A stretch of DNA of 53,564 nt from Planctomycetota bacterium (GTDB taxonomy: Bacteria > Planctomycetota > GCA-002687715 > DRQF01). The stretch spans positions 1-53,564 of the forward strand of contig JALTLO010000105.1 of NCBI GenBank assembly GCA_027001995.1. The letters run 5' to 3'. Below are positions 3,001 through 6,000 of the stretch, piece after piece. Each line of letters begins with the position of its first letter. The first letter of the stretch is position 1. Made by a program: the position numbers.

Positions 3001-6000
3001 TCGTAGGGATGTTCACCAATGTTGTGCTGGTGATGGATGACCCACTGGCATTGTCCTTCACTGTTGATGCCAATGGCCGTCGACCTGGCTTGAGAGCAAA
3101 GTTCACGCTCAAAGCATCCGTCGCTCGTGCAACCGATCAAGATGAGGTCGTCGTTGCCTAACACTTCATAGATCGCCTCAGAAAGTTCGTCTGAGCCGTC
3201 GAAGTGAATCGATGAGAAGAGAAAAACGATCTCAGGGTTGATGGCCGCCAAGGATTCGCCAATCTCAAGTCCGGCTCGATAAGGATCTGGGTTCATCGAA
3301 AAACAGGACTTGGATTTCATGCTAGTGCTCTCGCTTCACAGCGGTGTATGCCCGCCGTCGATTTGTTCTATTTCTTTGACGCCTCTTGCCGCTTGTATAG
3401 CCAGACCCAGCCATGGGAACTTTGGCTGCCGTCTGACATCGTTCGCTTGCCGTAGTCGCCGACAAGGAGGTCTAAGTCTCCGTCGTGGTCGAAATCAACC
3501 ACATGAACCTGTGTTCTGGTTCCCGGGTGTTTCTCGCCGAGTTTCTTGCCATTTGGCTGATTGATGATTGTTTGGGCGGTCGTGAAAGTGGGGGCTTTTA
3601 CAGTCCCGATATTGCGGAACCAAACAACGCCGCCATCGCCACTTCCACTGATGAGATCAAATTTCCCATCGCCATCCCAATCGGCTACCTCGGGAATCCC
3701 GTGGGCACCTTTGATGATCAAGGGAGTTTTTCCGGTCATGACAGAAGTGGACGCATCGTTGAATCGCGGATTCGATTTACTTCCGACGTTCTCACAGAGG
3801 TGCATGCTGCCGTCGTAACCTCCGAGTAGGAGGTCCAGGTCTCCATCTTGGTCCCAATCAACGGCGGTGACGCTTATGCCAATGATTGATCGAAACGGCC
3901 CCTGGTTGTTGTTCCATCGTTTAAGGGAGTAGTCCCAATATTGGCCCAACATGAGGCGTTTGCCAGATTTGTTGAGGAGTGGTTTGGCTGGGGAAAAGCT
4001 TCCGTCTTCTTGACCCTGAAGGAGATAGATCACTCCTTCGAAACATCCAGTGAAGAGATCTTTGATGCCATCGCCGTTGAGATCCGCAAACTGCGGATTG
4101 AGACCAATACATCACCAATTATTGAGTTTGATGACCTTGCCCTTGGCTTTGAGTAAGCCAGCACCTTTGTACTCAGGCTCTTTATTACTTTTGATGTTCA
4201 AGTAGACCTGAAAATGGCCTTTGTAGTTGCCGACGACTAAGTCGTCCAAACCGTCGTGATTGATGTCGTAGATCGCCGGCCCACTGTGGGAGCGGAACGC
4301 TGCTGAGTCGATCAGCTTGCCATCTGCCTTCAGCCTTATGGGCTTCGCCAAAATTACTTTGGCCGTAGTGAGCGACGAAGAGGATTTTTGGGCGTTTAGG
4401 TGGCCGCTCATAGCAGCAAGGAAGAGGAGTCCCACATGCAAAATCAATCTCATAGCTTTTCCTCATGGGAGTCTGAGGTGACTACCATGCTACTCTTGGC
4501 CTTGTGGCCCCATGTAATCCCATATTTCTATCCCTTCCACGGACGCCATGGTTCTCACGCGGTGAGTGATACGACGCACCTGAGAATCGCGATCGATCGA
4601 TTCGGGAGCGGATCAGCTTACCAGAATTGGTCTTGGGAAGGGCAGGATTTGTCATCTTCCATGATTCTCGAAATCGTATGACATTCCCGGACGAAGCACA
4701 TGGAGCATGATGTTCCTTGCTCCGTGGGGCTTCTGGCTTTCTGGGGTCATGGACAGGGAGTTGCGGGCATCAATGACGAGTACTGTACTTTCTCCCATAA
4801 CCTCAAAACTCTCGTTTTGGAAGATAACTGCTGTTTTTTCGTCGATGGCAATACCGACTCGTTTGGGGTGATCAAGAACGGCGGAGAGGAGACGGTTGAA
4901 ACGTCGCCTCTTAATGGCGTGCTGGTCGATGATGGCGCCTGTGATGAGGCCTAACCCGGGGGCCAATTTGGTTCTTTCCGGGAGAATCGCCCTAAGCTCA
5001 GCCTCACCGGTGATCATAAGTTGTGATTGGACGGCGGCCCCGGCACTGGTTCCGCCGAATACGACGCCCTGGGTGTGCATTGCCAACAAAGTTGCTCCCA
5101 ATCCCGCATTTCTGATGCTTTCCATCAGTTGGTTTTGGCTGCCGCCGGGCATCCAGATCAGCGTTGCAGTCTGGATCTTGTTCTTAGCTTCTGGGGAGTT
5201 TAGATCACGGACAATAAAGGCGGTTTGGGCACCTTCAGCTAAGAACATCTCCCTTGATTCTTGCCCCCTGCTCTTACGATTGCTGGCCTGCGGTAAGACA
5301 GCGACGATGGCTTTGCGGCCACCGGCGAGTTCGATTGCTTTTCTGACCACGGAGGTAGGTGTGCCGCCTCCTCCGACGATGACCAAGGGGCCGTGAGTGG
5401 AAGAACTTTGGGGAGAGGTGGCACAACCACAAAAAGACAGGACCACCAAAACGAGGAGTTGACGCATGAATGAGTCCAAACAGGGGTGAAAGATCTCTCG
5501 ACAGTTCATTCACCGATGATTGGACGTCATTGCATTCTTTCTGTCAAGTTAAGATGGCTTGCGGAATTTCTTCTTTCCACCGCTGCTCTTGGCTTTCCCT
5601 TTGAAGCCCCCCGATTTCTTAGGGCCCTTGTGCTTGTTGCCCCCGTCGCGGTTGAACTTGCCCTTGAAGCCGTCTCTGGCTCCTCCTGGAGTTGCCCCGG
5701 CTCTGGAGAGTTTGAGTTGGCGGTTCCTGATGCGAGTGTGGATTAAGAGGCGGAAAATGTTCGCCGGCATTCCCGCGGGCAAGTCAACGAAGCTGTGGTC
5801 ATGTTGAATGTCGATGCGCCCGATGTCGTCTGCGTTGATTCCCGCCTCATTGGCGATTGCGCCGACAATATTTCCTGGTTTGACACCATGAACAGCGCCA
5901 ATCTCAATGCGGAACTTTTCGAACCCGCCACCGGGGCCGCCGTGGTCCCGAGCATGACCTGCGTCTCGGTCACGACCGGGGCGTTTGTCCTTTCGCTTTT

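What a model noticed while it worked through the whole genome (the two positions that open the first line are those of the whole stretch)
3368..4453. FG-GAP/VCBS beta-propeller selenoprotein with a vicinal Sec-Cys pair
g02137 and g02136 are one 361-aa secreted FG-GAP/VCBS-repeat propeller protein read through UGA at codon 114 (motif N-N-W-U-C-I-G). Sec takes the place of the first Cys of a conserved vicinal Cys-Cys pair of full-length homologues in other Planctomycetota. The Sec form is common in the phylum but is called as a truncated ~233-aa protein in public gene sets.
Evidence so far: One frame, 1 TGA. 22 matches (E<=1e-30) in 16 of 23 genomes of the class, every one with exactly one in-frame TGA (one also a TAG), 34-64% identity; motif NNWUCIG[LM]xPQF kept in the 4 loci read, each followed 16 nt later by the hairpin AUCCGC-AGUUU-GCGGAU or a variant with paired changes (GUCCAC...GUGGAC). 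In 5.8 billion proteins 846 homologues at E<=1e-25: many of 211-250 aa that start just after the UGA, and ~440-aa full-length ones (Gimesia, Allorhodopirellula, Pirellulales) with I-Y-C-C-[IV]-G at the aligned place in 7 of 7 such proteins aligned; one 385-aa protein has W there (TGA read as Trp). No NCBIfam hit.
(Added by a program. Inside this text positions count along the whole contig: contig position 1 is position 1 of the stretch shown here. "Call 12" and the like, gene names such as g00115 and contig names such as C1 are that model's own, and its searches are not shown. The text may have been shortened before it was handed on; [...] marks where a part breaks off. The agent that wrote the report below was given it as the finding of a first reader that could run no searches.)

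Follow-up and report, generated by a model that had tools for sequence, protein, structure and literature searches.

The report
Secreted propeller selenoprotein, adjacent Sec-Cys pair
One gene for a secreted five-bladed calcium-type propeller protein is read through a UGA as selenocysteine next to a cysteine; this family is widespread in Planctomycetota and is routinely mis-annotated as a truncated protein.

Summary
Window 4453..3368 (minus strand) is one 361-codon frame with a single TGA at codon 114, in the motif NNW-U-C-IG.

- **Sec machinery:** the genome has selA, selB, selD and tRNA-Sec.
- **Distribution:** 95 of 401 sampled Planctomycetota genomes carry the TGA form, and all 95 have selA. 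None of the 113 genomes without selA has it.
- **Site conservation:** 68 of 70 loci read have TGA-TGY at the site. The other two have Cys-Cys.
- **SECIS-like hairpin:** a short hairpin starts 13 nt after the TGA. It is kept by compensatory changes and strongly skewed codon choice, and it is broken in all 4 Cys-form genes.
- **Cys homologues:** 57 of 60 full-length database homologues have Cys-Cys. Half of the best 120 hits are post-UGA fragments.
- **Fold:** the model (pLDDT 89) is a five-bladed FG-GAP-type propeller behind a signal peptide.
- **Conserved residues:** apart from the repeats' own Asp/Gly/Asn/Trp motif residues and a few Pro/Phe/Leu, U114 and C115 are the conserved (invariant) positions and the only candidate redox residues.
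- **Domain fusion:** some members, one Sec form included, carry a C-terminal DsbD_N domain with its Cys pair.

I read it as an extracytoplasmic oxidoreductase with an adjacent Sec-Cys redox centre and an unknown substrate. It is a new selenoprotein family. The only prior trace I found is a 2016 supplementary table.

The parts
3368..4453 (-). Whole selenoprotein gene: 361 codons plus a TAG stop at 3370..3368, with ATG at 4453..4451
   Evidence: One frame with a single internal TGA. Homologues align across the TGA.
4391..4453 (-). Signal peptide, aa 1-21 (MRLILHVGLLFLAAMSGHLNA, then QK). Sec-type, with no lipobox Cys and no twin-Arg
   Evidence: Read from the sequence. Residues 1-28 have pLDDT below 50. 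A strict test for a hydrophobic stretch passes in 54 of 64 family ORFs with a closed 5' end, and the 10 misses also look signal-like by eye. No signal-peptide predictor was available.
4112..4114 (-). UGA read as selenocysteine (codon 114)
   Evidence: TGA is invariant in 68 of 68 Sec-form loci. Cys stands at this place in 57 of 60 full-length database homologues.
4109..4111 (-). Cys115, the adjacent partner of Sec114
   Evidence: TGY in 70 of 70 loci. C in 63 of 63 locus proteins and in 59 of 61 rows of A1.
4082..4098 (-). SECIS-like hairpin AUCCGC-AGUUU-GCGGAU inside the coding sequence (codons N-P-Q-F-A-D), 13 nt after the UGA
   Evidence: Covariation, codon bias and loss of the hairpin in Cys forms. 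The folding energy of this one sequence is unremarkable.
4241..4267 (-). Blade 1 Ca-type loop D63-I-N-H-D-G-L-D-D71
   Evidence: D63 and D67 are invariant. The calcium-binding role is inferred from FG-GAP repeats (recalled).
4058..4084 (-). Blade 2 Ca-type loop D124-L-N-G-D-G-I-K-D132, directly after the U-C loop and overlapping the 3' arm of the hairpin
   Evidence: D124, D128 and D132 are invariant or nearly so.
3833..3859 (-). Blade 3 Ca-type loop D199-W-D-Q-D-G-D-L-D207
   Evidence: D199, D203, G204 and D207 are conserved.
3656..3682 (-). Blade 4 Ca-type loop D258-W-D-G-D-G-K-F-D266
   Evidence: D258, D262, G263 and D266 are conserved.
3470..3496 (-). Blade 5 Ca-type loop D320-F-D-H-D-G-D-L-D328
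   Evidence: D320, D324, G325 and D328 are conserved.

Best explanation
The two called ORFs are one gene for a secreted 361-aa selenoprotein.

**Decoding.** The UGA at codon 114 is decoded as selenocysteine by the genome's own SelA/SelB/SelD/tRNA-Sec system. A short hairpin in the coding sequence, 13 nt downstream, serves as the bacterial SECIS.

**Protein.** After export through the Sec pathway the mature protein folds into a five-bladed propeller of FG-GAP/VCBS repeats. Each blade carries a DxDxDG calcium-type loop.

**Redox centre.** Sec114 and Cys115 sit in the long loop that links blade 1 to the innermost strand of blade 2. By propeller topology this loop lies on the face where such proteins bind ligands; that placement is inferred.

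**Proposed mechanism.** The adjacent Sec-Cys pair is the redox centre. It cycles between a selenol/thiol state and an eight-membered selenenylsulfide ring while it reduces an oxidised substrate outside the cytoplasm. A DsbD-type thiol-disulfide relay then reduces it again. In some relatives the DsbD_N module is fused to the propeller. In this genome it would be the separate DsbD-like protein on contig C20.

**Shown:** one gene; conserved UGA; Cys homologues; covarying hairpin; Sec machinery; five-bladed fold of the model; U-C as the invariant candidate redox residues; the DsbD_N fusion.

**Inferred:** actual Sec insertion; calcium binding; position of U-C on the ligand face; redox cycling; the DsbD link for this unfused protein.

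**Unknown:** the substrate.
For: **1. Recoding**
- The single TGA is kept in 68 of 70 loci read; the other two have TGY-TGY.
- 90 genomes and 5 more carry the TGA form. Only 2 matches that span the site have no stop (G344, G375).
- All 95 genomes with the TGA form have selA, and 0 of 113 genomes without selA has it. G344, a Cys form, lacks selA. Related genomes are not independent, so this overstates the statistics.
- The genome has tRNA-Sec at 68.2 bits with anticodon tca, selA at 511 bits, selB at 334 bits, and selD at 357 bits, itself with one in-frame TGA.
- TGA ends 7 of 20 long ORFs of the window, so the codon is not reassigned.

**2. SECIS**
- 90.3% of cells pair, against 27-40% when the partner is slid. 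5 of 7 pairs have changes on both sides.
- The 4-bp core pairs in 271 of 272 cells, and RNAalifold finds that core unaided.
- The Pro codon in the stem is CCA in 36 of 50, against 8.5% of the other Pro codons in the same genes. The Val codon is GTG in 51 of 53, against 38.8% elsewhere.
- All 4 Cys-form genes have GTC or GCC there, which breaks a pair.

**3. Redox pair**
- CC stands in 57 of 60 full-length database homologues.
- U/C114 and C115 are invariant in 63 locus proteins. All other positions conserved at 90% or more are Asp, Gly, Asn and Trp of the repeat motifs or Pro, Phe and Leu, so U114 and C115 are the only conserved candidate redox residues.
- Sec and Cys have interchanged at least 3 times on a 93-row tree.

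**4. DsbD link**
- DsbD_N is found in 7 of 61 A1 members.
- An invariant YQAC-x4-C is present in 11 of 11 forms of about 600 aa.
- Sec form L040 has DsbD_N at 46.8 bits.
- G000 encodes a DsbD-like protein with a DsbD_N domain.

**5. Fold**
- The model has pLDDT 89.2 and pTM 0.87.
- The best structural matches are five-bladed GH43, GH62 and GH32 propellers at Z 18.2-14, with about 250 residues aligned at rmsd 3.7.
Against: - No experimental data show selenium in the protein, and no RNA run was found.
- The hairpin is small (6-7 bp). For this single sequence it folds no better than shuffles (z -0.12, 86 of 200 shuffles as good). The case for it rests on comparison only.
- No Rfam family matches.
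- The loop bases are also constrained by the Q-F codons.
- The window's own protein has no DsbD_N domain. Only 1 of 20 Sec forms scanned has one.
- Neighbouring genes are not conserved in 37 loci and include no redox partner.
- No coordinates of the model could be read, so the position of U-C on the ligand face is inferred from strand order.
- The model was built with Cys at 114.
- Nothing points to a substrate.
Confidence: 0.6

Rival explanations
1. Binding of soft metals or metalloids. The reduced selenolate-thiolate pair on the propeller face captures ions such as Hg(II), Cd(II), Cu(I) or As(III) in the periplasm. It would act as a scavenger, chaperone or sensor rather than as a catalyst. 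DsbD would only keep the pair reduced.
For: - Adjacent Cys pairs bind Hg(II) in MerA and MerT, and selenolates bind soft metals very tightly (recalled, not tested).
- U-C are the invariant candidate functional residues.
- A fused DsbD_N domain fits a pair that must stay reduced.
Against: - No mer, ars, cop or czc genes are next to the gene in the window or in 37 loci.
- No further conserved His, Cys or Met that could complete a metal site. H56 and H251 of the Cys clade are not kept in Sec forms.
- The family occurs in about a quarter of sampled Planctomycetota genomes.
- Sec in known bacterial proteins is nearly always catalytic or a cofactor ligand (recalled).
Confidence: 0.15
2. Redox-switched lectin or adhesin. 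The propeller binds a carbohydrate or protein ligand, as other FG-GAP propellers do. The strained adjacent Sec-Cys bond is an allosteric switch that turns binding on or off with the redox state of the envelope. It has no substrate turnover of its own.
For: - The closest sequence-type relatives by Foldseek are ligand-binding FG-GAP propellers: CRTAC1 at E 3.6e-8, integrin alpha, the lectins PVL and PLL2, and UmbA4.
- The protein has five Ca-type loops.
- The U-C loop directly precedes a Ca loop.
- Apart from the motif residues and a few Pro, Phe and Leu, no other conserved residues mark an active site.
Against: - A selenocysteine kept in 68 of 70 loci is costly for a mere switch.
- The DsbD_N fusion points to a stoichiometric supply of electrons.
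- No conserved sugar-binding residues were identified.
Confidence: 0.15
3. Not a selenoprotein. The UGA is a real stop, and the locus holds two separate small genes or a decaying gene.
For: - Gene callers split it, and public sets hold many post-UGA fragments.
- The single-sequence hairpin energy is unremarkable.
- There is no expression evidence.
Against: - The same codon is TGA in 68 of 70 loci at 33-64% identity, with both halves under selection in one frame.
- Cys aligns with it.
- The hairpin covaries and is lost in Cys forms.
- The TGA form is found only where selA is present.
- The fragments alone would be an incomplete propeller.
Confidence: 0.03

Closest known systems
Bacterial selenoprotein genes with an in-frame SECIS (type case: E. 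coli fdhF) and Cys-containing homologues
   Same: - In-frame UGA, with a hairpin starting about a dozen nucleotides downstream inside the coding sequence.
- A G-U in the apical loop.
- Dependence on selA, selB, selD and tRNA-Sec.
- Cys in homologues at the Sec position.
   Different: - The hairpin is shorter (4-7 bp) than the fdhF element (recalled), and no Rfam model matches it.
- The protein belongs to no selenoprotein family that I found listed.
FG-GAP / VCBS beta-propellers (integrin alpha, CRTAC1, ITFG2, the fungal lectin PVL)
   Same: - Pfam FG-GAP_3 and FG-GAP repeats with DxDxDG loops.
- These proteins are the top Foldseek hits, for example 9etn_A CRTAC1 at E 3.6e-8.
   Different: - Five blades, not seven or eight. 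TM-scores to those proteins are only 0.35-0.44, whereas five-bladed propellers align at Z 18.
- No UnbV_ASPIC domain in P0001, in the other 60 members of alignment A1 or in 20 Sec forms.
- It carries an adjacent Sec-Cys pair, which I do not know from those families (recalled).
C-terminal Gly-Cys-Sec-Gly redox tail of animal thioredoxin reductase
   Same: Sec and Cys are adjacent in sequence and could close an eight-membered selenenylsulfide ring. That ring would be reduced by a dithiol and pass electrons on (recalled chemistry; works-like comparison only).
   Different: - The order is Sec-Cys, not Cys-Sec.
- The pair is internal, in a propeller loop, not on a flexible C-terminal tail.
- There is no flavoprotein domain.
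- The protein is bacterial and exported.
- No homology.
Periplasmic reductases fed by DsbD or ScsB through the DsbD_N domain (DsbC, DsbG, CcmG, envelope peroxiredoxins)
   Same: - In a subset of the family a DsbD_N domain with its conserved Cys pair is fused to the protein.
- The genome has a DsbD-like protein.
- Extracytoplasmic location.
   Different: - The known clients have thioredoxin folds with CxxC motifs (recalled). This one is a propeller with an adjacent U-C pair.
- Electron transfer was not tested.
[quoted passage not shown]
   Same: These are split genes in two Planctomycetes, described as FG-GAP repeat proteins. SECIS is scored 'yes' in 3 of 4 (supplementary table read in full).
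   Different: - The residue listed as aligned in the closest hit is Gly, not Cys, and an ASPIC/UnbV domain is named, which this family lacks.
- The sequences are not given, so identity with this family could not be tested.
- The passages of the main text shown for my search terms (12 of 13 places) do not discuss them.

Membership tests
Bacterial selenoprotein gene (Sec-decoded UGA) | In-frame UGA conserved at the same codon among orthologues | tested here: met
   68 of 70 loci have TGA at the site. 95 of 401 genomes carry the TGA form.
Bacterial selenoprotein gene (Sec-decoded UGA) | Cys (rarely another residue) in homologues at the Sec position | tested here: met
   C in 57 of 60 full-length database homologues. 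4 Cys-form genes were read as DNA.
Bacterial selenoprotein gene (Sec-decoded UGA) | Stem-loop just downstream of the UGA, supported by covariation | tested here: met
   The single-sequence energy is not exceptional, and there is no Rfam hit.
Bacterial selenoprotein gene (Sec-decoded UGA) | selA, selB, selD and tRNA-Sec in the same genome | tested here: met
   all over the curated cut-offs.
Bacterial selenoprotein gene (Sec-decoded UGA) | Selenium found in the protein | not testable with these tools
   Needs 75Se labelling or mass spectrometry.
FG-GAP / VCBS repeat propeller (Pfam PF13517, PF01839) | Repeat HMM matches over the gathering score | tested here: met
   FG-GAP_3 86.6 bits (cut-off 26.9) and FG-GAP 54 bits (cut-off 22.1).
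Integrin-type seven-bladed FG-GAP propeller | Seven blades | tested here: not met
   Five Ca-type loops. The best structural matches are five-bladed propellers at Z 18.2. TMq to integrins is 0.37-0.41.
CRTAC1 / ASPIC-UnbV family | UnbV_ASPIC domain after the propeller | tested here: not met
   No such Pfam hit in P0001, in the 61 members of A1 or in 20 Sec forms.
Thioredoxin-fold selenoproteins (CxxU / UxxC) | Thioredoxin-like fold and a redox motif spaced by two residues | tested here: not met
   All-beta propeller model. The motif is an adjacent U-C. No thioredoxin-family Pfam hit.
PQQ-dependent dehydrogenases (propeller with an adjacent disulfide) | Eight-bladed PQQ propeller repeats | tested here: not met
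   No PQQ-family Pfam hit at E<=0.01. The model has five blades.
Clients of the DsbD reductive pathway | Extracytoplasmic redox-active Cys (or Sec) pair reduced by DsbD_N | tested here: inconclusive
   DsbD_N is fused in 7 of 61 A1 members and in 1 of 20 Sec forms. A DsbD-like gene is in the genome. Electron transfer was not tested.

The most novel reading that the evidence does not exclude
This would be a phylum-wide family in which selenocysteine is the normal state and cysteine the exception. Its members would be secreted enzymes of a new kind: a five-bladed calcium-type propeller whose only catalytic device is an adjacent Sec-Cys selenenylsulfide, recharged by the DsbD pathway. That would be a bacterial, extracytoplasmic counterpart of the Cys-Sec redox tail of animal thioredoxin reductase on an unrelated fold. 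As far as I know (recalled) it would be the first propeller selenoenzyme. It would give Planctomycetota a selenium-dependent reductive activity in the cell envelope that current annotation does not see.
Probability: 0.35. Interest if true: 0.78.

Novelty: new member of a known kind. Interest (0 to 1): 0.62.

Why it matters
- **Annotation.** About a quarter of the sampled Planctomycetota genomes (95 of 401) carry one or more copies, and standard gene calling cuts them at the UGA. Half of the best 120 database hits are such fragments. A family model with the Sec position marked would repair hundreds of gene calls and enlarge the known selenoproteome of a phylum in which 288 of 401 sampled genomes have selA.
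- **Chemistry.** An adjacent Sec-Cys pair on a propeller lies outside the usual CxxU/UxxC thioredoxin-fold pattern. It offers a compact natural selenenylsulfide centre to study.
- **Biology.** It points to an unrecognised selenium-dependent redox activity in the planctomycetal envelope, linked to DsbD.

Tried and rejected
- **Metal site of two His plus Sec and Cys.** H56 and H251 are nearly invariant in the Cys-form alignment but are not conserved among 63 locus proteins. Dropped.
- **Conserved neighbours or an operon partner.** Pfam on the nearest ORFs of 37 loci and of the window showed no recurrent partner. RtcB lies downstream only in 4 close relatives, and two loci have an adjacent FG-GAP paralogue.
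- **Longer fused forms.** A search among proteins of 633-2000 aa returned only generic multi-repeat FG-GAP/VCBS proteins without redox domains.
- **Complex prediction.** The propeller part and the DsbD_N part of the about 600-aa forms (alignment A2) gave no verdict, with score 0.01 against a mark of 0.32. This is not evidence either way.
- **Sequencing runs.** No RNA holder was listed, and the only full holder is a DNA run that may be the source. No reads were laid.
- **Rfam.** No match at E<=1.
- **Single-sequence folding.** z -0.12, uninformative.
- **Promoter and terminator scan.** No sigma-70-like site. The terminator-like hits were no more than the shuffles gave.
- **Protein atlas.** It did not take the read-through protein. 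The natural Cys form P0027 returned only FG-GAP clusters.
- **The search for related loci in genome contigs with P0027.** Only 2 loci came back, so the Cys-form DNA control rests on 4 genes.
- **Earlier findings of this scan.** None near this place.
- **Literature searches that found nothing relevant:**
  - selenoprotein + FG-GAP
  - selenocysteine + UnbV
  - selenoprotein + VCBS
  - selenoprotein + Planctomycetota
  - 'propeller', 'integrin', 'Planctomyc' and 'repeat' have no occurrence in PMC13188914 or PMC12013277 (term searches only)
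Full report
**What is in the sequence**

On the minus strand, 4453..3368 is a single frame of 361 codons closed by TAG. It has one internal TGA at 4114..4112, which is codon 114. Table 11 splits the frame into a 113-aa ORF and a 221-aa ORF. The read-through product starts with a Sec-type signal peptide (MRLILHVGLLFLAAMSGHLNA, then QK). It then has five repeats, each with a DxDxDG loop, at residues 63-71, 124-132, 199-207, 258-266 and 320-328. It reads L-N-N-W-U-C-I-G-L-N-P-Q-F-A-D at the TGA. Pfam finds FG-GAP_3 (1.7e-24) and FG-GAP (1.5e-14). No NCBIfam model passes its cut-off. 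TGA ends 7 of 20 long ORFs of the window, so the codon is not reassigned in this organism.

**Can this genome make selenoproteins?**

Yes. The assembly (5.2 Mb, 204 contigs, 92% complete) has the full machinery:
- tRNA-Sec at 68.2 bits, which ARAGORN calls tRNA-SeC with anticodon tca.
- selB at 334 bits.
- selA at 511 bits.
- selD at 357 bits, itself with one in-frame TGA.

selA, selD and the tRNA lie together on contig C148.

**Is the TGA conserved?**

I searched 401 genomes of the phylum with the read-through protein. 103 have a match at E<=1e-20. Every listed match that spans query residue 114 has one in-frame TGA, except two, G344 and G375. A few have a second TGA or a TAG. The other matches without stops cover only residues of about 190-340.

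A second search with a natural Cys form (P0027) again returned almost only TGA forms. I compiled the tables by hand and counted them: 95 genomes carry the TGA form.

I then read 70 loci. 68 have TGA followed by TGY, and 2 have TGY-TGY. The pair is kept in sub-families with quite different contexts: NNW-UC-IG, PVY-UC-IAS, PAG-UC-VGF and VW-UC-TSS.

**Link to the Sec machinery**

selA is present in 288 of the same 401 genomes. All 95 genomes with the TGA form have selA, and none of the 113 genomes without selA has it. Fisher's test gives p = 2e-16, but related genomes are not independent, so the figure overstates the case. G344, which has a Cys form, lacks selA. G375, also a Cys form, has it.

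**The hairpin**

AUCCGC-AGUUU-GCGGAU (4098..4082) begins 13 nt after the UGA. Taken alone it is unremarkable: -9.7 kcal/mol, z -0.12 against shuffles. No Rfam model matches. The evidence for it is comparative.

- **Pairing.** In an ungapped alignment of the 68 TGA sites, a 7-pair helix is paired in 90.3% of cells, against 27-40% when the 3' partner is slid by 1-3 columns.
- **Compensatory changes.** 5 of 7 pairs show changes on both sides.
- **Core.** The four core pairs are paired in 271 of 272 cells: CG 55 / UG 13; CG 63 / UA 4 / UG 1; AU 50 / GC 14 / GU 3 / other 1; CG 67 / UA 1. RNAalifold predicts that core on its own.
- **Coding constraint.** The stem is made of the codons for P-Q-F-[A/V]-D. 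The third base of the Pro codon pairs with the second base of the Ala or Val codon, as CCG with GCG and CCA with GTG.
- **Codon choice.** At this site Pro is CCA in 36 of 50 cases, although CCA makes up only 8.5% (98 of 1158) of the other Pro codons in the same genes. Val is GTG in 51 of 53, against 38.8% elsewhere. GTC is 47% elsewhere and never occurs here.
- **Cys forms.** The four Cys-form genes available as DNA have GTC or GCC at that codon, which breaks a core pair in 4 of 4.

The distance from the UGA and the G-U in the loop fit what I recall of bacterial SECIS elements. That comparison is from memory.

**Homologues in protein databases**

1555 proteins score E<=1e-10 among the 8000 candidates scored. 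The best 120 fall into three length classes:

| Length | Proteins | Note |
|---|---|---|
| 260 aa or less | 60 | begin a few residues after the UGA, for example MADLTGDG... |
| 340-559 aa | 48 | full length |
| 560 aa or more | 12 | long forms |

In an alignment of the 60 longer proteins with the query, the aligned pair is CC in 57, WC in one (P0003, 385 aa, presumably called under a code that reads TGA as Trp), SS in one and a gap in one. So full-length database entries are Cys forms because only those are called whole. In genomes the Sec form is the rule.

On a 93-row tree Sec forms occupy every major clade. Cys forms appear in three separate places, which needs at least 3 changes. With shuffled labels the mean is 18.3 changes, and none of 500 shuffles was as low. 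The direction of change would need a root.

**Fold**

The AlphaFold model, built from alignment A1 with Cys at 114, has mean pLDDT 89.2 and pTM 0.87. Residues 1-28 are disordered.

Foldseek ranks FG-GAP-type proteins first: CRTAC1 9etn_A at E 3.6e-8, ITFG2, TcB propellers, UmbA4, integrin alpha and the lectin PVL. Their TM-scores are only 0.35-0.44. A search that does not depend on Foldseek gives five-bladed propellers as best matches: GH43, GH62, GH32 and GH130, at Z 18.2 down to about 14, with about 250 residues aligned at rmsd 3.4-4. Together with the five Ca-type loops, this says the protein is a five-bladed propeller built of FG-GAP-type repeats.

Residues 101-120, which hold U114-C115, are the non-strand link between the last strand of blade 1 (95-100) and the first strand of blade 2 (121-123). 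In propellers such links lie on the face used for ligand binding or catalysis. I infer this from topology, because I could not read coordinates.

**What is conserved**

Among 63 family proteins translated from the loci, the positions kept at 90% or more are of three kinds:
- Asp, Gly, Asn and Trp residues of the repeat motifs.
- A few Pro, Phe and Leu: P38, P59, P288, F231 and L296.
- U/C114 and C115, both at 100%.

U114 and C115 are the only conserved residues that could serve as a redox or catalytic centre. The His residues that are nearly invariant in the Cys clade (H56, H251) are not kept in Sec forms, which removes my idea of a His/Sec/Cys metal site.

**Functional lead**

Family members of about 600 aa carry a C-terminal DsbD_N domain (PF11412).
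- It is over the 25-bit cut-off in P0033, P0042, P0046, P0075 and P0096. It is below the cut-off in P0062 and not found in P0029.
- It is found in 7 of 61 members of A1 at E<=1e-3.
- In an alignment of 11 such proteins the motif Y-Q-A-C-x4-C is invariant. From memory, this matches the redox pair of the DsbD N-terminal domain.
- One Sec form (L040, 575 aa, PVY-U-C-IAS) has the domain at 46.8 bits. It is 1 of 20 Sec forms scanned.
- The window's genome has a DsbD-like protein with a DsbD_N domain and the membrane core on contig C20.

This fusion is the basis for reading the U-C pair as a redox centre that receives electrons from a DsbD-type relay. It is a lead, not a demonstration. The window's protein has no such domain. 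Its neighbours are Peptidase_S51 and DeaD upstream, and a FIST protein and a PAS histidine kinase downstream. Neither they nor the neighbours in 37 other loci supply a redox partner.

**Mechanism proposed**

1. SelB with Sec-tRNA binds the hairpin, and Sec is inserted at UGA-114.
2. The protein is exported through the Sec pathway and folds into the calcium-type five-bladed propeller.
3. Sec114 acts as the nucleophile on an oxidised substrate.
4. Cys115 resolves the intermediate by closing a selenenylsulfide ring.
5. A DsbD_N domain reduces the ring again.

Step 1 is strongly supported by comparison. Step 2 rests on the model and on the signal-like N-termini: 54 of 64 pass a strict hydrophobicity test, and the rest look alike by eye. 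Steps 3 to 5 are inference. The substrate is unknown.

The rivals are metal or metalloid capture by the selenolate-thiolate pair, and a redox switch on a lectin or adhesin. A plain stop codon is very unlikely.

**Comparison with what is known**

The recoding apparatus is the standard bacterial one. The protein is an FG-GAP/VCBS repeat protein by HMM, but:
- It is not an integrin-type seven-bladed propeller.
- It is not a CRTAC1/ASPIC member: no UnbV_ASPIC domain in P0001, in the other 60 members of A1 or in the 20 Sec forms scanned.
- It is neither a thioredoxin-fold selenoprotein nor a PQQ enzyme.

Its chemistry most resembles the adjacent Cys-Sec pair of animal thioredoxin reductase, with the order reversed and on an unrelated fold. 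That is a works-like comparison only.

**Is it in print?**

- Full-text searches for selenoprotein + FG-GAP, selenocysteine + UnbV, selenoprotein + VCBS and selenoprotein + Planctomycetota found nothing relevant.
- The 2026 review PMC13188914 and the deep-Sep paper PMC12013277 have no occurrence of 'propeller', 'integrin', 'Planctomyc' or 'repeat' (term searches only).
- The one trace is S9 Table of PMC4807772, which I read in full. [quoted passage not shown] The aligned residue is given as Gly and SECIS as 'yes' in 3 of 4. It also lists one 'hypothetical' with a Cys homologue in Rhodopirellula. No sequences are given, and the main-text passages shown for my search terms (12 of 13 places) do not discuss these genes. 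I cannot say whether they are this family.
- Supplements of other selenoproteome surveys were not examined and may list it.

**Verdict**

This is a real and widespread selenoprotein family, systematically mis-called and essentially undescribed. It has an unusual adjacent Sec-Cys centre on a five-bladed secreted propeller. The recoding mechanism is ordinary. The protein and its likely envelope redox role are new. Function beyond 'redox centre, probably DsbD-linked' remains open.

Noticed in passing
G000 contig C148:21750-24409 (loci L017, L018, L001): selA, selD and tRNA-Sec lie in one cluster. selD has an in-frame TGA near its N-terminus (…SSGG-U-AAKLS…), so it is a selenoprotein too.
   Followed up: partly
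Phylum sample of 401 genomes: selA is over its cut-off in 285 of 401 sampled Planctomycetota genomes (288 at E<=1e-60). Selenocysteine use is therefore the majority state in this phylum sample. One family (f7) has it in only 1 of 20 genomes.
   Followed up: no
P0003 (385 aa, JGI metagenome protein): This full-length family member has Trp at the Sec position. The contig was probably gene-called under a code that reads TGA as Trp, which hides a selenoprotein.
   Followed up: no
G397:C1:2880479-2882734 and G346:C4:101690-104221: Two family copies, each with one TGA, lie in tandem. G119 has several TGA-form copies. The family has expanded in some genomes.
   Followed up: no
L103:1489-3489 (G002): A 667-aa Sec form has a C-terminal extension of about 230 aa with no Pfam match. 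It follows an FG-GAP plus TPR paralogue upstream.
   Followed up: no
window 94-3320, minus strand: A FIST-domain protein (2166..3320) and a PAS histidine kinase (94..2169) overlap by 4 nt and look like one sensory operon just downstream of the selenoprotein gene.
   Followed up: no
window 7798-9495 and 9599-10669, minus strand: Two long ORFs (565 and 356 aa) have no Pfam family at E<=1e-4.
   Followed up: no
P0004 (345 aa): One close relative of the window's protein has Ser-Ser in place of the Sec-Cys pair. It is a natural form without the pair and could serve as a control.
   Followed up: no
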